Below, piece after piece: positions 16,406-63,040 of a DNA stretch of 64,000 nt. This DNA is from a virus. Taxonomy: Duplodnaviria > Caudoviricetes. Made by a program: the position numbers and the translations under genes. The DNA lies in IMG/VR virus record IMGVR_UViG_3300021387_000688. One strand, given 5' to 3'. Position 1 is the first letter of the stretch, and every line of letters starts with the position of its first letter. The notes below the pieces were generated by a model that saw only the letters and a list, made by a program, of their open reading frames with translations, made no database searches and was not told the DNA's origin.

Positions 16406-18624
16406 TATCCTCTCCATTCAATATCTCTACCATATACTTTATAAATTTCAAGCAATATCTTTCTTTTGATTGCTTTTGCTTTAAAAATATCTTCAAGGTA
16501 ATCATCCATTACTTGAACAAACTTACCTTCGTTTTCATCGCACTCCCCGTAAGAAGTATTATGCAATTGTTCTCCTCGTCTGTCAATGGTAAGCTGCCAT
16601 GAGTTCAAAGACCTAAAGTCCTTCATGCAAAGCCTTACGATAAAATTATAGTCTTCTGTTGAAAACTCAATTCTATAGCATGAAGGTCTAAAATGTTCTG
16701 GAGGAAAATTAATACAACGATGCAAATCAAAATTAAGAAGATTTAATTCCTTCATTGCATTTTCAACCATTTTTTCTTCTGTAATGGCGTCAATTGTTCC
16801 TTTATAAAAAGGGTTTAATTTACACACTATTTCAAAATCTTCAGCCACCTTAGCTTTCTGCTCATTTGTGGCGTTCAATTCATTCAATACTTCTTTTGTA
16901 TTAGGAGGAAGTTTGAAATCTTCTTTCCAGTAAAGTTTAACTAATTCGCTTTTTACAAATTCCAATAACCCAGTTGCAGAATTTACATCCATCTGTTTTT
17001 TAACATCTTTAACAAATTCACCATCTTCCATTCCGGTTCTTGTATAATCAATTACCTTAGGATTCTTAGGAAGTGCGCATTTAAGACTCCAGTTACCGTG
17101 AATCCATTTTAAGAGATGACTTCCGAGGTCATCTTTCGTAATATCTAAAGTCGGGTAATATTTAACTCTACTACGGAACCATTGACGTGCAGCGTCTTCC
17201 ATATACTTGTTATCAAAATCGATTCTAACCGTAGCATCCCCATAAAGGGTTGTAGTAGGAGACACAAAAGGCATCATAAAAGTATACTGAATATGACTTT
17301 CTTCTAGAGTTTTTCTCATCCATTCTTTCATAGCTGCTTTTACTTCTTCGGCACGTCGTTCATTTCTCTTTTTCCTAGCCTCTTCATATTCTCTTTCATC
17401 ATTCTTTACGGCCCAACCATTGTATTCGTTTTTAAGTTTTTCAAGTATATTGAATCTAAAATCATCCCAGAAATCTTCGTAATTATTAACAATGTTAAAG
17501 ATATCCCTCATCCTTGGGAAGAAGTTTGCTAGCGATCCCTGATATGGAAGATTTGGAAACTTTTTATCACAAATGCTAGAGATGCTAATATGATCAAAAA
17601 CGTCCCAAACATTCAATCCGCAAAAAGTAATGCCCTGAGGGTGCAAATCAATTTTTAATTTAAACTCTTTTTCTTCTCCGGAGAAGCCCTTAAAAGAAAT
17701 TTCTGCATAGCATTCAGGTTCACTACATTCTACAAAATCTATGTGAAGAGAATCTTTATAATATTCAATATGAGTTGGCCACAATCTTTCTATTTCTTCT
17801 TCTCTCCATTCATGGAATTTGTTAACTTCAAGTAAAGATACTTGATACAAGAATTCCTCAACTACTTTCGGTGCATCCATCTTATTCCAATCATTGCCTT
17901 CATAATCTTGCCAAAGCTGCACCAACTTCTTTTTCAAAAAACAAATATTATCCCCTTTACAAATTGTATAAGGAGGGAACGCATTACTATTAATATTCCA
18001 ATACATCTTTCCTGCAAGTGCTTCAAAGGAATTATGCAGCGTATCGCAAGACTGTTTTTTATTCAATTCAATTACCATACTCACGTCAAAGTAAATTGAA
18101 TTTATAAAAAATCCACCATGTACATGCTCTTCCATAGCTCTGCACTTATCTTCATCTGTACCAGAAGTGTAATTGAAAGATACTTGCCAATTTCTTTCAT
18201 CGTAAAGAGGTTCAACAATTTTAGGTTCAGAATTGGTCAACCTGTCATGGTAATTTTTTATTTCAACTTTTAAAGTCTCTATCATTTTGATCCAAAGGTA
18301 AGAAGATAATGGAGTTACATTATCTTTACTGAGCTTCTGCATTTTAAGACCTTTCCAGATTTTTGCATCAATATCTTTATTAAACTTTATATAAAGTTTT
18401 TCTTTACGGGCTGAATCACAAAGGGATTCAAAAACTACTGCATTAGAGTTTTTCTTGTAAAAACTTATTTCAAGCTTCATTGTTTCGATAGCTTTATTAT
18501 CCCATTCTTCAATCAAACCAGATTCCATAGAATCTATTGTTTCTACAACCCAATGTACAGAGGCTATTTGCCTTGCCCAGTATCCTAAATCTTCTAATCC
18601 TTCAAAGTGTAAATTATAATACAT
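16405..18624 (-). CDS. hypothetical protein, local paralog family
   Basis: 739 aa; LPPNTKEVLNELNATNEQK. Confidence 0.85.
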   Translation of the reverse strand: MYYNLHFEGLEDLGYWARQIASVHWVVETIDSMESGLIEEWDNKAIETMKLEISFYKKNSNAVVFESLCDSARKEKLYIKFNKDIDAKIWKGLKMQKLSKDNVTPLSSYLWIKMIETLKVEIKNYHDRLTNSEPKIVEPLYDERNWQVSFNYTSGTDEDKCRAMEEHVHGGFFINSIYFDVSMVIELNKKQSCDTLHNSFEALAGKMYWNINSNAFPPYTICKGDNICFLKKKLVQLWQDYEGNDWNKMDAPKVVEEFLYQVSLLEVNKFHEWREEEIERLWPTHIEYYKDSLHIDFVECSEPECYAEISFKGFSGEEKEFKLKIDLHPQGITFCGLNVWDVFDHISISSICDKKFPNLPYQGSLANFFPRMRDIFNIVNNYEDFWDDFRFNILEKLKNEYNGWAVKNDEREYEEARKKRNERRAEEVKAAMKEWMRKTLEESHIQYTFMMPFVSPTTTLYGDATVRIDFDNKYMEDAARQWFRSRVKYYPTLDITKDDLGSHLLKWIHGNWSLKCALPKNPKVIDYTRTGMEDGEFVKDVKKQMDVNSATGLLEFVKSELVKLYWKEDFKLPPNTKEVLNELNATNEQKAKVAEDFEIVCKLNPFYKGTIDAITEEKMVENAMKELNLLNFDLHRCINFPPEHFRPSCYRIEFSTEDYNFIVRLCMKDFRSLNSWQLTIDRRGEQLHNTSYGECDENEGKFVQVMDDYLEDIFKAKAIKRKILLEIYKVYGRDIEWRG

Positions 18625-51732: not shown

Positions 51733-51815
51733 GCGTTCATGACCGGAGATGGCATCGGGCCTGACTGTAAATCAGGTGTATTCGTACATGGGGAGTTCGA
51801 GTCTCTCAGGGCGCA
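51733..51815 (+). tRNA. tRNA-Tyr(GTA), divergent second copy
   Basis: CCTGA-CTGTAAA-TCAGG; weak acceptor stem. Confidence 0.85.
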
Positions 51816-51855: not shown

Positions 51856-51941
51856 GCACTCGTGGCGGAACTGGTAGACGCCCAGGACTTAAAATCCTGT
51901 GTCGGTTAAACGGCGTACGGGTTCGATTCCCGTCGGGTGCA
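51856..51941 (+). tRNA. tRNA-Leu(TAA)
   Basis: CAGGA-CTTAAAA-TCCTG. Confidence 0.95.
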
Positions 51942-52214: not shown

Positions 52215-52220
52215 CTACAG

Positions 52221-53051
52221 GGTTGGTTTCCGATCCTATTAAAAGATAAACGGTGAATACATAAGCCGTGAAAGTCATATTCGTAAAGGTATGGCGGTGG
52301 GAATTTATTTTCCACTCTACGTGAAAACAATGCATCTAACTTGTGATGGCGTTGACCGACGGCAAGTGCTGAGGTTGATAGTTGCAAGGCTCGGTAGTCG
52401 ACGAGCTTGGTTCAAGTTGAGAAGTTGCTTTCTTAATAGCAACTTTGACTACAAGAATGACAGAAGGTGTATTTATCCTCTAAGAAAGAATTGCAAGTTC
52501 CCATAGAGAGGATAACGAACAACGGTAGGTTCTTCAAAGAAATGAGGAGAATTGAAGTCAGTAGATCGAGTAGTTTTTGCAGACGAAAGTAGAAAGGTGA
52601 AGTTTTCTAAACCAGTCAAAAGCTGGCAAGGAACAAGCTAGACCTCATCTTTCAAGGTAGTCAACCGAAATTCTTATGATTAACTCAGTTGGATAGAGTA
52701 ATTGCCTCCTAAGCAATCTGTCGTAGGTTCAATTCCTACATCACAAGCAAAAGTGTCTAGCACAGCCAAATGAAAATGGCGTTATCCAGGTGAAATATAC
52801 TGGCTTGGTGAGTACCGCAAGGAAAGTCAAGAATGGAATGAAGTAGTCAACTGGTAAGAGCCCGCAAGCTCTTCAGGCCGCAAGCCGCTAGGGATGAAAA
52901 AGGAAATTATAAGTTTGGTTGTAGTGAGTTCGACAACACTCTTTAAGTTGTTCGCCATGCGTTCTACTATCAGAAATGGTAGTGTGATTGAAGTTCCGAA
53001 AGGGATTAAAATGAACGTTGTTTAGGTCAATAAATCTCAGCCTTTTCATTT
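52221..53051 (+). ncRNA. large structured RNA, GOLLD-like, with embedded tRNA
   Basis: About 830 nt; 5' domain closed by 52221-52231/52656-52666; 52893-52903 pairs with 53041-53050; many GNRA hairpins; tRNA in linker. Confidence 0.6.
52674..52747 (+). tRNA. tRNA-Arg(CCT)
   Basis: ATTGC-CTCCTAA-GCAAT. Confidence 0.9.
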
Positions 53052-53129: not shown

Positions 53130-53270
53130 ATATAGCATAAGTTGTTCCTATTAAGAGCATGACTAAAATCTGCTGGCAATGCGCCGTATGGGTTCGACTC
53201 CCATCGATCCTCTAAAGGGGATTGTGGTGGAATGGTAGACACGGCAGACTCATTATACAACCCGCTATAT
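53130..53270 (+). tRNA. circularly permuted tRNA-Leu (TAA or CAA) in paired flanks
   Basis: 3' half 53161-53211 precedes 5' half 53218-53250. Confidence 0.8.
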
Positions 53271-53730: not shown

Positions 53731-53872
53731 AAATTGCACAGAGTGTTCCTATTATTGCTTTGGGAGCCCTGGGTTGTAGGTTCGAGTCCTACCCTGCCAA
53801 CTATTTCAAAAAGTTAAAAACTTTGGCAGGTAGCTCAACTGGTAGAGCAAGGATTTTTACACTTCGCAATTT
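53731..53872 (+). tRNA. circularly permuted tRNA-Pro(TGG) in paired flanks
   Basis: 3' part 53757-53800 precedes 5' part 53824-53852; rejoined stem AGGGC-TTTGGGA-GCCCT. Confidence 0.85.
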
Positions 53873-53879
53873 TTATATA

Positions 53880-53947
53880 TGAGGTTTAGCTTAGACTCGG
53901 TTAAAGCAACGTGCACAGAAAGGAGGTTCGATTCCTTCTAACCTCAA
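53880..53947 (+). ncRNA. tRNA-like element lacking an anticodon arm
   Basis: TGAGGTT/AACCTCA acceptor, GCTT/AAGC D stem, GGTTCGATTCC T arm. Confidence 0.65.
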
Positions 53948-53949
53948 GC

Positions 53950-54398
53950 AAAGCCGTAGGGAGTAGGATAACTCTTTAGCTTATAGGTTCAGTACTAACC
54001 TGTGAACTAATCACTCCCGAACTAGGTACAGGAACGAAAACTGAAGTGGGGAAGAAGCGGAGGTTGGATACTGTGGTAATCCTAGAGCATGTGAAAGTAG
54101 GAGAGTTGACTTTGGAGAGTGCCAACTTAATGTTCAACCCTGATCCAAGTATCTCTTCCCTTATAGGAAGGGTACGAAAAATGCATTGGATAGAATTAGA
54201 TGCTCCTACATATAAAAAATGACGATTATCGCACACGAGATGATCAAAAAGGTGCAACAACGGTGGGGAAAGCCCATGCCGGTTAAAAGAGCAGATCTGC
54301 GCGATGTCCTTCGACGGTATCTGCCGTAAGAGGGTAGGGGAACCTTGTAGACAAGGGACTGAAGGGGTGTACTCGATCCGAAAAGTTATCTTTTTTTT
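53950..54398 (+). ncRNA. unidentified large structured RNA (about 430 nt)
   Basis: GATAACT 53967 pairs with AGTTATC 54384; GC-enriched, multiple hairpins, T run at end. Confidence 0.6.
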
Positions 54399-54402
54399 TA
54401 TT

Positions 54403-54492
54403 TCAGGATAATTCCTGCAAGGTCCGCGGATGTAGGAAATGGAAACCTTATAGATCAATAAGGAATAGGACGTTCGAATCGTTTGATCCTGA
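54403..54492 (+). ncRNA. atypical tRNA-like cloverleaf
   Basis: TCAGGAT/ATCCTGA, CCTGCA/TGTAGG, CCTTAT/ATAAGG, T loop TTCGAAT. Confidence 0.55.
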
Positions 54493-54750
54493 CTTCACAA
54501 CAGCTGGTGACAATTATCCAGGAACACTTAGAGTCCGCTAAGGTTAGCTGCAACTAACTGGATGCTCAATGTATAGCAAAGACTGTGCAAAGATGACTGG
54601 AAGAAAGAGACACGTGGAAGGGTGTCGGGTAACTTTGCTACCTCCATAACGAGAAACCCGCCGTGATTTGCAGTCAACGATACAGTTTCTCTACTTCCAA
54701 TTTTTGGAGTGATCCATATCGGATTATTAGACATTAAGTCTGAAACATAT

Positions 54751-54833
54751 TGGAGCGTATCTCAGCTGTCTTATAAACAGTCCGGTATAATTCGAGTAAT
54801 TGGTGGATGAGGGTTCAACTCCCTCCGCTCCAA
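54751..54833 (+). tRNA. D-armless tRNA-Ile(TAT)-like RNA with long variable region
   Basis: TGGAGCG/CGCTCCA; GCTGT-CTTATAA-ACAGT; GAGGG-TTCAACT-CCCTC. Confidence 0.7.
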
Positions 54834-55367: not shown

Positions 55368-56789
55368 ATGCGTAAGAATTTATTTAAAGAAGCAATACCG
55401 GCAGAAAGGGACCGTAGAGCCGCAGGGGTAAAATACCGCGATTCAAGTGTAATAGATATGCTTCATGTTGAGGATGATACTTCCGGAGCTGCTACTGCTA
55501 AATTGATTTCTTTCTTAAAGAAAGAAAAATTCAGCGAATACCAAGATTATTTTCGAAAAACAATCAAGCTTTTTGGAGAAAACTATGATGTATATGTTCC
55601 TTATGTATATAAAAAAGGAACATTTACAGTAGTTAGATGGTTTATCGAACCTGGCAAGTACAATAGAACTGCATGGGCGGAATGGTATAATGATGAAGAG
55701 GATTGGGAATATCTTGATCCATCTTTCGCAAAAATCGTTGAGAGATATGGTCTAAAAAGAATGAAGGCTTACATAGGGGATGATCCTTACTATGGTTTAG
55801 GACTTCGTATGCAGAATACTGAAATGACTTCTAATGATTTTGTTAATAAATTGTTAGTGGTTTATAATAAACTTGAAAAGGTAAAAGATAGTTACAATAC
55901 AACTAGTCAAATGGATGATAGAGAATACTACACATATAAAGGCAAGTTACCAAATAACAACCTTCAAATAAACGTATTCTATGTAGACGGAGAAAATGGT
56001 TGTACAATTGAATATGATTGTGAAGTATTAGGTGAAGATCTTAAATGCTATGTTGAATCTGAAAATTCTGCAGTCGGTCTAGATCTTAACGAACCTTCTG
56101 TAACAAAACCTTTCTTTGAGGTTTTAGCTGAAGAAGGAATTATTGAAGAGGAAGATGTAGATTCTTTAGCTGAAGAATTTGATAATGGGCCAACTTATAA
56201 TTATCTTCAAATTTTTGATGTAAGTGATTGGCCAAAGTATTTTGAAATGGTAGGGGAATTCTTAAAAGCAGAGGGTTATATAACTGAATACAATGTAGAA
56301 GCTAGTAGAGCCGTAAACTCTCGTAGAAAGAACCGTATTAAGAACAATCCAAATCTTAGACAGCAGTACGAATCCAGAATTTCTAAAATCTCAAGAAGAA
56401 TGAGAGAAGCAGAAGAAGATTGGGATGACCTTGGATACGATGATTCAGATGCAGGTGTAGAAGATTGGGATGATCCTAATGAAGCTTTAGATGGTGAAGA
56501 TTATTTCACTTATGATGATCCTGATTATACAGGAATGAATTCTGGGGAAAGAGCTTATGACCATTACGATTCTGATATGGAAGATGTAATTGCAGATTCA
56601 ATGCCAACCCGTAAAAAGGGATTAGGTATTGGAAAGAAAAGAGGAGACTCTTCATATTTCAATAAGGATTATTTAGACGCCCCAGATATGTGGGATGAAA
56701 ATGGAGACAATGTTCCTGAAGAAATTGAATGGAAGTTGACTAAAAAAGTTGCAGAATCTAAAAAACCTTTCAAAACAAGATTGTATTAA
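55368..56789 (+). CDS. acidic putative capsid-internal protein
   Basis: LFKEA, YESRISKISRRMREAE, VAESKK motifs; SD AGGAG. Confidence 0.6.
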   Translation: MRKNLFKEAIPAERDRRAAGVKYRDSSVIDMLHVEDDTSGAATAKLISFLKKEKFSEYQDYFRKTIKLFGENYDVYVPYVYKKGTFTVVRWFIEPGKYNRTAWAEWYNDEEDWEYLDPSFAKIVERYGLKRMKAYIGDDPYYGLGLRMQNTEMTSNDFVNKLLVVYNKLEKVKDSYNTTSQMDDREYYTYKGKLPNNNLQINVFYVDGENGCTIEYDCEVLGEDLKCYVESENSAVGLDLNEPSVTKPFFEVLAEEGIIEEEDVDSLAEEFDNGPTYNYLQIFDVSDWPKYFEMVGEFLKAEGYITEYNVEASRAVNSRRKNRIKNNPNLRQQYESRISKISRRMREAEEDWDDLGYDDSDAGVEDWDDPNEALDGEDYFTYDDPDYTGMNSGERAYDHYDSDMEDVIADSMPTRKKGLGIGKKRGDSSYFNKDYLDAPDMWDENGDNVPEEIEWKLTKKVAESKKPFKTRLY

Positions 56790-61651: not shown

Positions 61652-63040
61652 TTACTTAAGTTCGTAACTTACATCTTTTTGAATGATTTCTACATTCTTA
61701 AATCCATTTGTATTTAGATATTTTTGCAAGAAGTCTTGAGCCTCTTTATCACCATGTACTAAGAAAATCTTTTTAAGTTTAGAAGTATCAATTTTCTTTA
61801 ACCATTCTACTTGCTCTTCAAAATCTGCATGAGAAGAAAATGCACTTAAGCTTTGAACCTCTGCATTTAATTTATGCTCATCTCCTTCAATATTTACAAT
61901 AGGATTCTTTTCAAGAATATCTCTACCTAAAGTACCTTCTCCTTGATAACCAACTAACAATATAGTATTACGAGGATTAGAAACTCCAAACTGTAAATGA
62001 TTGATGATACGGCCACCTTCACACATACCTGAACTTGCCAATACAATACAAGGCTTTCTACTTCTGGCAACTTCAACACTTTCTTTGAAATCATTTACGC
62101 AATGTAAACTACCTACAGAGAATGGGTTCTTACCTTTACTTACAAAGTTGTTTTGAATATTTTCATTGAAACATTCTGGGTGAATATTAAATACACCTGT
62201 AGCATTAACAGCCATTGGAGAATCAATATATACAGGTATTCTAGGTATCTTCTCTTCTCTCATTAAGTTCTTCAAATAATAAACTAACTCTTGTGCACGT
62301 TCAATTGCAAAGGTAGGTATAATAACTTTACCACCTCTTTCAATAGTTCTGTTTATAATATTTGCAAACTCTTTTAATGCCAATCCCGCATCTTGGTGTT
62401 TGCGATTTCCATAAGTACTTTCCATTACGATGTAATCTGGTGCAGGGAAAGAAGTCTCCGGAGGATTAGTAATAGGGTTGTTAGCTCTACCCAAATCTCC
62501 TGTAAACAAAATATGCATTGGCGTTTTTAACAAACCGAAAAACTTTTTTCTTTTGATTTCTAAATCTACTAAAGCAGATCCTAAGATATGACCCGCATCG
62601 TAAAAAGTAATTTTTACATTATCATTAAGATGTTTCTCTTTATGATAGAAGTGACATCTAAATTGATTAATAGTTTTTACAACATCACTTTCTTCATAGT
62701 AAGATCCGAGCTTTTCATGTTTTTGAATTTTAGCAGAGTCTAGCATTATGATAGAAGATAAATCTCTCGTGGCTGGAGTAGATCTAATCTTTCCTTCATA
62801 ACCTTCTTTTACAAGTTTAGGTAATAGACCACAATGGTCAAAATGTGCATGGGTTAGAATGATTGTTTCTATATCTTTTATATCTATAGGACAAACAAAA
62901 TCTTTATTCTTTTGCTGATCTTCTTGATTGCCTTGCCATGCACCGTAGTCAATCAAGATATATTTATCATCTAATTTCAAAAAATGCTTAGACCCTGTAA
63001 CTTCGCCTACCGCACCAAAACTTTTTAATTCTACCTTCAA
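61652..63040 (-). CDS. MBL-fold beta-CASP ribonuclease
   Basis: EVTGS, LTHAHFDHCG, AGHILGS, FTGDLG, MESTYG, SGMCEGGRI, FSSHAD, LVHG. Confidence 0.95.
   Translation of the reverse strand: MKVELKSFGAVGEVTGSKHFLKLDDKYILIDYGAWQGNQEDQQKNKDFVCPIDIKDIETIILTHAHFDHCGLLPKLVKEGYEGKIRSTPATRDLSSIIMLDSAKIQKHEKLGSYYEESDVVKTINQFRCHFYHKEKHLNDNVKITFYDAGHILGSALVDLEIKRKKFFGLLKTPMHILFTGDLGRANNPITNPPETSFPAPDYIVMESTYGNRKHQDAGLALKEFANIINRTIERGGKVIIPTFAIERAQELVYYLKNLMREEKIPRIPVYIDSPMAVNATGVFNIHPECFNENIQNNFVSKGKNPFSVGSLHCVNDFKESVEVARSRKPCIVLASSGMCEGGRIINHLQFGVSNPRNTILLVGYQGEGTLGRDILEKNPIVNIEGDEHKLNAEVQSLSAFSSHADFEEQVEWLKKIDTSKLKKIFLVHGDKEAQDFLQKYLNTNGFKNVEIIQKDVSYELK

What the first reader, a model, noticed from the sequence alone, without database searches (positions are those of the whole stretch)
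53731..53872. Circularly permuted tRNA-Pro(UGG) gene
Seen: the anticodon loop, T arm and acceptor 3' strand (53757-53800) come before the acceptor 5' strand and D arm (53824-53852). Rejoined, they give a clean cloverleaf: acceptor TGGCAGG/CCTGCCA, discriminator A, D stem GCTC/GAGC and anticodon stem AGG|GC-TTTGGGA-GCCCT, with the break at position 29/30. The 3' part is followed by the same A-CTA trailer as several intact tRNAs here. Established: permuted tRNAs are known from some unicellular algae and an archaeon, where they mature through a bulge-helix-bulge and a circular intermediate. I see no canonical BHB here. Inference: a bacterial-phage version with another maturation route, or a two-piece tRNA. 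Standard tRNA scanners would miss it.
Basis: partly seen in the sequence, partly recalled or inferred. Interest (0 to 1): 0.9.

Follow-up and report, generated by a model that had tools for sequence, protein, structure and literature searches.

The report
Permuted tRNA-Pro on a handle RNA
The back-to-front proline tRNA is real, but it is one of many tRNA-derived "cargos" on a conserved RNA handle that giant phages and some bacteria encode beside a large unannotated protein, so it is more likely a tRNA mimic in an undescribed RNA-protein particle (a counterpart of Ro60/Y RNA) than an ordinary tRNA gene.

Summary
Observation confirmed. 53757-53800 (3' part) followed by 53824-53852 (5' part) rejoin into a perfect tRNA-Pro(UGG). 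The locus is identical in three independent assemblies and is invisible to ARAGORN and to Rfam at curated thresholds.

The flanks are not a BHB. They form a conserved, covarying "handle": clamp helix, A-N-A/C bulge, 6-bp helix, then an invariant UCCUAU strand. The window has a second unit (Leu-like, 53130-53270), and this phage has at least 8.

The same handle occurs 7-15 times per genome in unrelated huge phages and in Chryseobacterium. Its cargo may be:
- a permuted tRNA, with the junction always at 29/30 when it falls in the stem;
- an anticodon arm or a T-arm minihelix;
- a CCA-ending tRNA mimic, or almost nothing.
As a closed hairpin it also sits inside normal tRNAs.

In 72 of 80 viral loci, handle units lie directly upstream of a ~600-700-aa unannotated protein (new helical domain plus TerD-like domain). 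In Chryseobacterium the order is RtcB, handle RNAs, this protein. No Ro60 or splicing endonuclease was found. This phage also has two ordinary tRNA-Pro(UGG) genes.

Best reading: a Y-RNA-like particle RNA with a tRNA-Pro body. Cutting and religation into a real tRNA is not excluded.

This scan earlier noted a different handle beside Ro60-like genes, and a permuted tRNA-Asn, in other phages.

The parts
53731..53737 (+). Pro unit: clamp helix, 5' strand (AAAUUGC; the last two bases are the invariant G-C)
   Evidence: Pairs with 53866-53872. GC/GC is invariant in 52 units and the outer pairs covary.
53738..53740 (+). Pro unit: A-N-A bulge (ACA), opposite the single C at 53865
   Evidence: The bulge is A-N-A in 48 of 52 units and the opposite C is invariant.
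53741..53746 (+). Pro unit: inner 6-bp helix, 5' strand (GAGUGU)
   Evidence: Pairs with ACACUU at 53859-53864. The variable positions are 95% paired against 59% when partners are shuffled.
53747..53756 (+). Pro unit: invariant single strand UCCUAU plus a 4-nt linker (UAUU)
   Evidence: UCCUAU is present in all units found. The linker is 3-7 nt in most units.
53757..53800 (+). tRNA-Pro body, positions 30-73: anticodon hairpin with loop UUUGGGA, variable loop, T arm, acceptor 3' strand, discriminator A
53801..53823 (+). 23-nt loop closing the acceptor stem; it starts with the CUA trailer shared with intact tRNAs of the array
   Evidence: By analogy with M. smegmatis YrlA, it could be opened by RNase P and 3' processing (inferred).
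53824..53852 (+). tRNA-Pro body, positions 1-29: acceptor 5' strand, D arm, AGG of the anticodon stem
53853..53858 (+). Pro unit: 6-nt U-rich linker (AUUUUU)
   Evidence: The 5' body part ends 5-7 nt before the inner helix in all tRNA-bearing units.
53859..53872 (+). Pro unit: inner helix 3' strand (ACACUU), bulge C, clamp 3' strand (GCAAUUU)
53130..53270 (+). Second handle unit of the window, with a permuted class II tRNA-Leu(UAA)-like body. Clamp AUAUAGC/GCUAUAU, bulge AUA/C, inner helix AGUUGU/ACAACC, UCCUAU. 3' part about 53164-53212, 5' part 53218-53250.
   Evidence: The junction lies in the anticodon loop; the ~6-nt linker rule gives the loop CUUAAAA.

Best explanation
The locus is a gene for a small modular RNA of a family I could not find described. 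It has a conserved handle and a tRNA-derived body, here a complete but circularly permuted tRNA-Pro(UGG).

Shown:
- Leader and trailer pair into the handle: a 7-bp clamp ending in G-C/C-G, an A-N-A bulge opposite one C, a covarying 6-bp helix, and an invariant unpaired UCCUAU.
- The handle is read as RNA from the tRNA strand.
- It recurs in many unrelated huge phages and in Chryseobacterium with interchangeable cargo.
- It is encoded directly upstream of one conserved protein of ~600-700 aa, made of a new helical domain and a TerD-type beta-sandwich.

Inferred:
- The handle is the docking site of that protein, as the Y-RNA stem is for Ro60.
- The tRNA body folds into an L-shape whose acceptor stem is closed by a 23-nt loop. 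RNase P, 3' trimming and CCA addition may open this loop, as happens to M. smegmatis YrlA.
- The body, which keeps an intact anticodon loop, acts as a tRNA mimic. It would be a bait, tether or decoy for enzymes that bind or cut tRNA-Pro, in the conflict over tRNA damage and repair. That is the setting suggested by the RtcB-handle RNAs-partner operon of Chryseobacterium and by the RNA ligases of these phages.
- It is not needed as a decoder, because the phage has two ordinary tRNA-Pro(UGG) genes.
For: - **Handle is real and RNA-level.** 52 units have 29 distinct inner helices. The variable positions are 95% paired against 59 +/- 2.7% when shuffled, with 10 G.U pairs against 1 A.C, and the bulge and UCCUAU are invariant.
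- **It recurs.** There are 7-15 copies per genome in four huge-phage records and 2 in a fifth, against 0-3 for the reversed pattern. One of these genomes, G001, shares only 5 of 120 ORFs with this window.
- **Cargo that cannot become a tRNA.** This includes anticodon arms, D plus anticodon arms, T-arm minihelices, tRNA-like bodies with a GNRA-capped or collapsed anticodon stem and an encoded (A/G)CCA, and near-empty units.
- **Partner gene, protein-first search.** Homologs occur in 5 of 5 handle-bearing records. In 72 of 80 viral loci encoding it, handle units lie within 1.5 kb upstream on the sense strand (183 units; antisense control 5), and the last unit usually ends 11-50 nt before the gene. 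The same is seen in distant members L114, L116-L118.
- **Partner gene, RNA-first search.** It lies directly downstream in loci found by the RNA pattern alone (L012, L017, L021, L022, L105).
- **Bacterial operon.** Chryseobacterium has WYL regulator, RtcB, handle RNAs, partner, in two genomes.
- **Same topology as YrlA.** The match covers the full model at 43.8 bits, E 6e-9. YrlA is cut by RNase P and receives CCA in vivo.
- **Redundant as a decoder.** Two ordinary tRNA-Pro(UGG) genes lie at L201 13484-13556 and 14451-14525, and an intact tRNA-Leu(UAA) at window 51856 duplicates the permuted Leu.
- **Weak point on charging.** The permuted body has U1-A72, while both ordinary genes keep C1-G72. 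From my own knowledge, G72 is an identity element for bacterial ProRS.
Against: - No RNA-protein binding has been shown; the link is by gene neighbourhood only.
- The partner gene was not found in this window or in about 29 kb beyond it. The other ~300 kb of this phage could not be read.
- The halves rejoin without a missing or extra base. The junction is at 29/30 in nine different tRNAs. The 5' part always ends 5-7 nt from the helix. That is what a precise cut-and-seal system would need.
- The body keeps a canonical anticodon loop, which YrlA lacks.
- Insert-type units sit in otherwise normal tRNAs, one of which (Pro-GGG in G001) has an anticodon not otherwise encoded there.
- RNA ligases are present in 4 of 5 handle-bearing records and in this phage.
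Confidence: 0.5

Rival explanations
1. Cut-and-religate maturation into a working tRNA-Pro. The handle marks the two linkers for removal, either by the partner protein, by a host RNase, or by exonucleolytic trimming back to the helix ends. An RNA ligase (RtcB or an Rnl type) then seals the nick at 29/30. The resulting circle, or loop-closed molecule, is opened by RNase P and 3' processing and receives CCA. In function this would be a bacterial-world counterpart of BHB splicing.
For: - Rejoining is exact, and the junction and linker rule is constant across nine tRNA identities and both topologies. The same rule gives canonical loops for the units whose junction lies in the loop.
- After trimming, the junction is a nick inside a continuous helix. 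From my own knowledge, that is the substrate of Rnl2-type ligases.
- RtcB, Rnl1 and Rnl2 genes occur in handle-bearing phages. An RNA_ligase-family gene lies about 17 kb past the window in this phage.
- RtcB sits next to the handle RNAs in Chryseobacterium, and an Rnl2 gene sits next to the partner gene in L115.
- The CUA trailer is shared with intact tRNAs.
- The T stem of an insert-type tRNA shows a compensatory change between L010 and L011.
Against: - Most units carry cargo that cannot become a tRNA, or almost none.
- The distance from UCCUAU to the 3' part varies from 3 to 12 nt, so the cut is not set by the handle alone.
- No splicing endonuclease was found in the five handle-bearing IMG/VR phage records, and no known nuclease fold was recognised in the partner protein.
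- RNA ligase genes lie within 3 kb of the partner gene in only 5 of 80 viral loci.
- The Pro and Leu anticodons are already supplied by ordinary genes.
Confidence: 0.28
2. Two-piece tRNA. The acceptor loop is opened and the handle or linkers are removed without ligation. The two pieces stay together through the acceptor stem and the 3 + 2 bp of the anticodon stem, and they work in translation.
For: - M. smegmatis YrlA exists in vivo as two associated halves after RNase P cleavage.
- The break lies in a stem, not in the anticodon loop, for nine units.
Against: - Units whose junction lies in the anticodon loop (Leu, Ser, Arg, Pro-GGG) could not decode without ligation.
- The same objections from non-tRNA cargo and from redundancy apply.
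- I know of no precedent for a nicked anticodon stem working on the ribosome.
Confidence: 0.07
3. A classical YrlA-type Y RNA bound by a Ro60 (Rsr/TROVE) protein encoded elsewhere in this phage.
For: - The match to Rfam YrlA covers the full model but is below threshold.
- Some jumbo phages carry TROVE with a tRNA-like partner RNA (PMC7824862).
Against: - The score of 43.8 is below the gathering score of 69 and comes from the tRNA-like part; the stem region aligns with gaps.
- The GNCGAA(N)G Ro-binding motif (PMC4201824) is absent.
- TROVE was found in 0 of 5 handle-bearing records, including a complete 424-kb genome.
- The handle is instead linked to a different protein.
Confidence: 0.05
4. 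An inert relic: decayed halves of tandem tRNA genes, or copies of a selfish hairpin element that inserts into tRNA genes, with no function for the phage.
For: - The handle behaves like a repeat with many copies and some nearly empty units.
- Exact rejoinability would follow automatically from an insertion event.
Against: - All stems of the tRNA body are intact although the body is only 62-64% identical to its paralogs.
- The same Pro(UGG) 29/30 design occurs in an unrelated phage with compensatory changes (L179).
- The handle shows strong covariation and invariant unpaired bases.
- The position relative to the partner gene is fixed in 72 of 80 loci.
Confidence: 0.05

Closest known systems
YrlA Y RNAs with Ro60/Rsr (Rfam RF02553; Chen et al. 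2014, PMC4201824), including the Salmonella rsr-yrlBA-rtcBA operon
   Same: - The 5' and 3' ends pair into a protein-binding stem.
- The rest is a tRNA-like module in permuted order (T arm, loop-closed acceptor stem, D arm).
- The RNA genes lie beside the gene of the protein partner, and there is a link to RtcB.
[quoted passage not shown]
   Different: - The handle has a different sequence and shape, with no GNCGAA(N)G motif.
- The partner is not a TROVE protein. It is an unannotated helical plus TerD-like protein.
- The body here keeps a complete anticodon hairpin and joins the handle at a nick at 29/30, rather than through both strands of the anticodon stem.
- The cargo is far more varied: tRNA sub-domains, near-empty units, and the handle as a hairpin inside normal tRNAs.
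- The Rfam score is below the gathering threshold.
Circularly permuted tRNA genes of Cyanidioschyzon merolae, some green algae and Thermofilum pendens
   Same: The 3' part is encoded upstream of the 5' part on one strand with a short spacer joining the acceptor ends. Rejoining gives a canonical cloverleaf.
   Different: - There is no bulge-helix-bulge, and no splicing endonuclease was found in the five handle-bearing IMG/VR phage records.
- The junction is flanked by a conserved handle that also carries non-tRNA cargo.
- Ordinary genes for the same anticodon are present.
- No RNA evidence for circular intermediates exists here.
'Enigmatic introns' in tRNA genes of Lak megaphages (Devoto et al., bioRxiv 10.1101/356790)
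   Same: Short, highly conserved inserts in tRNA genes of huge gut phages, with no Rfam class. One 'intron' itself looks like a tRNA. This resembles the insert-type and nested units seen here.
   Different: The link was not tested. I could not reach the Lak sequences or their Table S6, so identity with this handle is only a lead.
Handle RNAs with tRNA-derived cargo beside Ro60-like (DUF2828-vWA) genes in giant phages
   Same: A conserved clamp-plus-motif handle, interchangeable tRNA-derived bodies including scrambled tRNAs, and arrays in front of one protein gene.
   Different: The handle motif differs (CAGCAA type against A-N-A/C bulge plus UCCUAU) and so does the partner protein. DUF2828 and TROVE were not detected in the genomes carrying this handle.

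Membership tests
Circularly permuted tRNA genes (algal/archaeal type) | 3' half encoded upstream of the 5' half on the same strand; rejoining gives a canonical tRNA | tested here: met
   ARAGORN calls tRNA-Pro(UGG), and the best junction is unique at 29/30.
Circularly permuted tRNA genes (algal/archaeal type) | Leader and trailer form a bulge-helix-bulge motif around the junction | tested here: not met
   the strands next to the junction (AUUUUU and UCCUAUUAUU) do not pair. The flanks form a 6-bp helix, a 3x1 bulge and a clamp instead.
Circularly permuted tRNA genes (algal/archaeal type) | Splicing endonuclease (EndA/Sen) available to cut the BHB | tested here: inconclusive
   PF01974 was found in 0 of 5 handle-bearing phage records, including a complete genome, while the archaeal controls rang. 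This phage's whole genome and its host could not be searched.
Circularly permuted tRNA genes (algal/archaeal type) | Circular intermediate and a mature, charged tRNA | not testable with these tools
   This needs RNA data.
YrlA / bacterial Y RNA (RF02553) | Terminal stem plus a tRNA-like module in the order T arm, closed acceptor stem, D arm | tested here: met
   the alignment covers model positions 1-114.
YrlA / bacterial Y RNA (RF02553) | Score at or above Rfam's gathering threshold | tested here: not met
   43.8 bits against 69. The Leu unit gives no hit. Other permuted units score 40.4 and 33.8.
YrlA / bacterial Y RNA (RF02553) | Ro-binding motif GNCGAA(N)G in the stem | tested here: not met
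   The motif is as given in PMC4201824. The leader reads GC-ACA-GAGUGU-UCCUAU.
YrlA / bacterial Y RNA (RF02553) | Ro60/Rsr (TROVE) gene nearby or in the genome | tested here: inconclusive
   None among the window's proteins. TROVE was found in 0 of 5 handle-bearing records. DUF2828 was found in 0 of 5, but the control was silent. The rest of this phage's genome was not readable.
UCCUAU-handle RNA family (defined here) | Clamp ending in G-C/C-G, A-N-A bulge opposite one C, covarying 6-bp helix closing with G-C and U-A, then unpaired UCCUAU | tested here: met
   Window 53731-53756 with 53859-53872.
UCCUAU-handle RNA family (defined here) | tRNA body joined with its 5' part ending 5-7 nt before the helix, and the junction at 29/30 when it lies in the stem | tested here: met
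   the 5' linker is 6 nt, the linker after UCCUAU is 4 nt, and the junction is 29/30.
UCCUAU-handle RNA family (defined here) | Partner gene (helical plus TerD-like protein, P0124 family) in the same genome, usually just downstream of a unit | tested here: inconclusive
   There was no profile hit in the window or in L199, L201 and L202, which reach about 29 kb beyond it. About 300 kb of this phage went unread. The gene is present in 5 of 5 other handle-bearing records.

The most novel reading that the evidence does not exclude
The UCCUAU handle is the recognition element of a protein-guided RNA cutting-and-rejoining system of phages and Bacteroidota. In function it would be a bacterial-world counterpart of archaeal BHB splicing. 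The partner protein, or an enzyme it recruits, would excise whatever lies on or around the handle, and RtcB or Rnl ligases would seal the ends. This would turn permuted and interrupted genes into working tRNAs and other cargos into small circular RNAs.
Probability: 0.25. Interest if true: 0.95.

Novelty: new variant of a known kind. Interest (0 to 1): 0.8.

Why it matters
Permuted tRNA genes are known only from a few algae and one archaeon, and protein-dependent tRNA splicing is thought to be absent from bacteria and their viruses. This locus shows that huge phages carry complete tRNAs written back to front, and that they do so inside a widespread RNA-protein gene module that has not been catalogued. 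The handle has no Rfam family. Its partner protein has no Pfam family, although it forms about 1,400 clusters at 50% identity.

- **If the module is a Ro60/Y-RNA-like particle,** it is a second, independent invention of the "protein handle plus tRNA mimic" design. It is tied to RtcB in a culturable bacterium, *Chryseobacterium*, which makes it directly testable.
- **If it cuts and rejoins RNA,** it would be a new route of tRNA maturation.

It may also explain the "enigmatic introns" reported in megaphage tRNAs, and it flags tRNA-like genes that standard annotation either misses or miscalls.

Tried and rejected
- **Assembly artefact:** rejected. The locus is identical in L001, L199 and L200. 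L003 is chimeric at this spot and was not used.
- **BHB or archaeal-type splicing:** no motif in the flanks, and no PF01974 hit in the five records.
- **Group I intron, or a permuted intron-exon arrangement:** the flanks are only about 25 nt, and Rfam finds no intron.
- **Known small ribozymes:** no Rfam hit at E up to 10. The resemblances I recalled to the hairpin-ribozyme loop and to the FRT site are not supported by the variable positions, so I dropped them.
- **DNA-level recombination site:** unlikely, because the helices tolerate G.U but not A.C.
- **Classical Ro60 partner:** TROVE 0 of 5. DUF2828 0 of 5, but its control was silent. Ro60 and Rsr appear only at Z 4.2 and 3.7 in the fold search, which is noise.
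- **The 473-aa protein just after the array (55368-56789) as the partner:** no similarity to the P0124 family.
- **N-terminal domain of the partner:** no convincing solved or Atlas relative (best Z 5.3).
- **Relatives of this phage in IMG/VR:** not found through its flanking proteins or the exact Pro pattern. There is no close phage in INPHARED.
- **Whole-genome access:** the phage's own genome could not be searched, as no genome is held and there is no handle for the ENA contigs.
- **Anticodon census in G001:** ambiguous. One anticodon is unique and two are redundant.
- **A looser handle pattern:** it gave mostly noise in AT-rich DNA and was not used for counts.

Full report
**1.

- In a phage tRNA array (about 51.6-55.0 kb of the window), 53757-53800 encodes tRNA positions 30-73: the anticodon hairpin GC-UUUGGGA-GC, CCU, the variable loop, the T arm, the acceptor 3' strand and discriminator A.
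- After a 23-nt spacer, 53824-53852 encodes positions 1-29.
- Joined in tRNA order, ARAGORN calls a 74-nt tRNA-Pro(UGG), and the minimum-energy fold is the cloverleaf.
- In genomic order, ARAGORN and Rfam at gathering thresholds are blind to it.
- A scan of all possible trims gives one best junction, 29/30.
- The locus is base-identical in independent assemblies from other samples (L001; L199 and L200), so it is not an assembly artefact.

**2. The flanks are a conserved handle**

- Leader and trailer form a 7-bp clamp (AAAUUGC/GCAAUUU), a bulge ACA opposite a single C, a 6-bp helix (GAGUGU/ACACUU) and an unpaired UCCUAU. Linkers of 4 and 6 nt lead to the body.
- The same design, with compensatory changes, flanks a permuted tRNA-Leu(UAA)-like body at 53130-53270.
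- A pattern built from the leader plus a T loop hit 14 IMG/VR contigs.
- The core motif occurs 15, 12, 7, 8 and 2 times in five of those records, against 0-3 for the reversed pattern.
- Over 52 units with 29 distinct inner helices, the variable positions are 95% paired against 59 +/- 2.7% after shuffling partners. G.U outnumbers A.C by 10 to 1, so the structure is read as RNA from the tRNA strand. The bulge A-N-A/C, the G-C clamp pairs and UCCUAU are invariant.
- Rfam 15 has no family for the handle.

**3. Cargo and topology vary**

With the handle open and the cargo closed, the cargo can be:
- a bare anticodon arm (Asn, Phe, Cys and others);
- a D arm plus an anticodon arm;
- a T-arm minihelix;
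- a whole tRNA-like body in normal order, whose anticodon loop is replaced by a GNRA tetraloop or collapsed, and which ends in an encoded ACCA or GCCA;
- a whole permuted tRNA (Pro, Leu, Lys, Met, Asn, Thr, Ser, Arg);
- almost nothing (11-22 nt).

With the handle closed as a ~40-nt hairpin, it interrupts otherwise normal tRNA genes.

The junction follows a rule:
- Whenever it falls in the anticodon stem it is at 29/30, or 28/29 where a repeated base makes it ambiguous. This holds in nine units with different identities.
- The 5' part always ends 5-7 nt before the inner helix.
- Applying that rule to units whose junction lies in the loop gives canonical loops, such as CUUAAAA for the window's Leu unit.
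- An unrelated phage (L179) has another permuted tRNA-Pro(UGG) with the same 29/30 junction and compensatory differences.

**4. What the handle is linked to**

- The locus matches the full length of Rfam's YrlA model at 43.8 bits (E 6e-9), below the gathering score of 69. The score comes from the tRNA-like part.
- YrlA RNAs have the same topology. They bind Ro60/Rsr through a GNCGAA(N)G stem, lie next to rsr and rtcB, and in *M. smegmatis* are cut by RNase P and receive CCA (PMC4201824).
- Here the Ro motif is absent. Neither TROVE nor DUF2828 was found in five handle-bearing records, one of them a complete 424-kb genome (the DUF2828 control was silent).
- A scan of bacterial genomes found the handle in two *Chryseobacterium* genomes and a *Ktedonobacter* MAG.
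- In *C. culicis* DSM 23031 the order is: WYL-WCX regulator (divergent), RtcB, a tRNA-like gene with a handle insert, three near-empty handles, then a 584-aa protein with no Pfam family. The order is conserved in the second genome.

That protein (P0124) is the key:
- Homologs occur in 5 of 5 handle-bearing phage records, directly after a unit in three of them.
- The family has about 1,370 clusters at 50% identity and is annotated only as hypothetical.
- 202 IMG/VR contigs encode it. Of the 80 loci fetched, 72 have handle units within 1.5 kb upstream on the sense strand (183 units, 1.6 per kb), against 5 units antisense and 23 downstream. The last unit usually ends 11-50 nt before the start codon.
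- Distant members from unrelated metagenomes show the same, including variant handles such as UCCUUU and A-U clamps.
- The link is reciprocal. Loci found by RNA alone have the gene just downstream.
- An AlphaFold model (pLDDT 93) shows a helical N-terminal domain with no convincing solved relative, and a TerD-type beta-sandwich with Foldseek probability 1.0 and Z about 10.
- No nuclease, ligase or Ro60 fold was recognised.

**5. Enzymes for rejoining**

- No archaeal-type splicing endonuclease was found.
- RtcB, Rnl1-type and Rnl2-type ligases are present in 4 of 5 records, and all three types occur in the complete genome.
- They lie within 3 kb of the partner gene in only 5 of 80 viral loci.
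- This window encodes no RNA ligase, only a beta-CASP RNase at 61652-63040.
- Walking along a 397.6-kb contig of the same phage found an RNA_ligase-family gene about 17 kb past the window.

**6. This phage in particular**

- Beyond the window lie further tRNA arrays with six more handle units: one near-empty, a normal-order mimic with an encoded GCCA, a hairpin, an Asn arm, a permuted initiator-like tRNA and a Phe arm.
- They also hold two ordinary tRNA-Pro(UGG) genes. The permuted body is only 62-64% identical to those two genes. It has U1-A72 where both of them keep C1-G72.
- The intact tRNA-Leu(UAA) at 51856 likewise duplicates the permuted Leu.
- The partner gene was not found in the window or in about 29 kb beyond it. 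The rest of the genome could not be read, so whether this phage has the gene is open.

**7. Interpretation**

- The family-wide evidence best fits a modular particle RNA, the logic of Ro60 with Y RNA carried out with a different handle and protein. That evidence is a conserved handle with invariant unpaired bases, cargo that often cannot become a tRNA, and a dedicated neighbouring protein gene.
- The tRNA-Pro body would then be a mimic offered to enzymes that bind or cut tRNA-Pro, in the setting of tRNA damage and repair. I give this 0.5.
- The main rival (0.28) is that the handle directs removal of the linkers and a ligase seals 29/30 to give a real tRNA. The exact and constant junction, the nick-in-helix geometry, the insert-type tRNAs and the ligases speak for it. 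The non-tRNA cargo, the variable 3' linker, the redundancy with ordinary genes and the lack of a recognisable nuclease speak against it.
- The two readings are not exclusive, because the particle could itself be the processing machine.
- A two-piece tRNA, a classical Ro60 Y RNA and an inert relic are less likely.

**8. Literature and earlier notes**

- I found no paper describing a permuted tRNA gene in a phage.
- Devoto et al. reported unexplained conserved "introns" in megaphage tRNAs, one of which looks like a tRNA. These may be insert-type units, but I could not test that.
- The jumbo-phage review PMC7824862 mentions only TROVE with a tRNA-like partner.
- First-reader notes of this scan had already seen the covarying frame and other copies in this genome. 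I confirmed several of them.
- Follow-ups on other phages described a different handle next to Ro60-like genes, which prompted my search for a partner protein.

Noticed in passing
window 53881-53947 (+): Eight bases after the Pro unit lies a tRNA-like gene with good acceptor, D and T arms but only about 12 nt where the 17-nt anticodon arm and variable loop should be. It scores 26.8 bits against Rfam tRNA, just under the threshold of 29. It is another non-decoding tRNA mimic, without a handle.
   Followed up: partly
window 51733-51815 and 54751-54833 (+): Two weak Rfam tRNA hits (31.0 and 35.4 bits) that ARAGORN misses. The first is a second Tyr(GUA)-like class II gene. The second has a long insert between the D and T arms.
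   Followed up: no
window 52216-52673 and 53950-54750 (+): Long ORF-poor, GC-raised stretches inside the tRNA array with no Rfam match. They may be large structured RNAs.
   Followed up: no
window 53733-53737 and 53754-53758 versus 53866-53870: AUUGC occurs twice in the leader, and both copies can pair with GCAAU of the trailer. Infernal used the inner copy when aligning to YrlA. This could be an alternative conformation or a coincidence.
   Followed up: no
L100 821-6009 (Chryseobacterium culicis DSM 23031, NZ_FNWQ01000004.1) and L099: A conserved chromosomal module: WYL-WCX regulator, RtcB, a tRNA-like gene with a handle insert whose anticodon arm is a 6-bp stem with a 5-nt loop, three near-empty handle units, then the 584-aa partner protein. 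It is a culturable system for testing the family.
   Followed up: partly
L201 16396-16520: A handle unit in this same phage carrying a normal-order tRNA-like body with a collapsed anticodon loop (CCCAC-UAA-GUGGG) and an encoded GCCA. ARAGORN miscalls it tRNA-Leu(UAA).
   Followed up: partly
L202 about 16830-16903: ARAGORN reports a tRNA with a four-base anticodon (ACUU) among the Lys tRNAs of the next array. It may be a frameshift-suppressor-like tRNA or a mimic.
   Followed up: no
window about 54237-54764: Three large independent assemblies of this phage (389,096, 397,595 and 397,621 bp) end inside this tRNA array. This suggests either the physical genome ends or a repeat that breaks assembly.
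   Followed up: no
L201 18232-19982: A GGDEF-domain gene lies next to the RNA_ligase-family gene in this phage.
   Followed up: no
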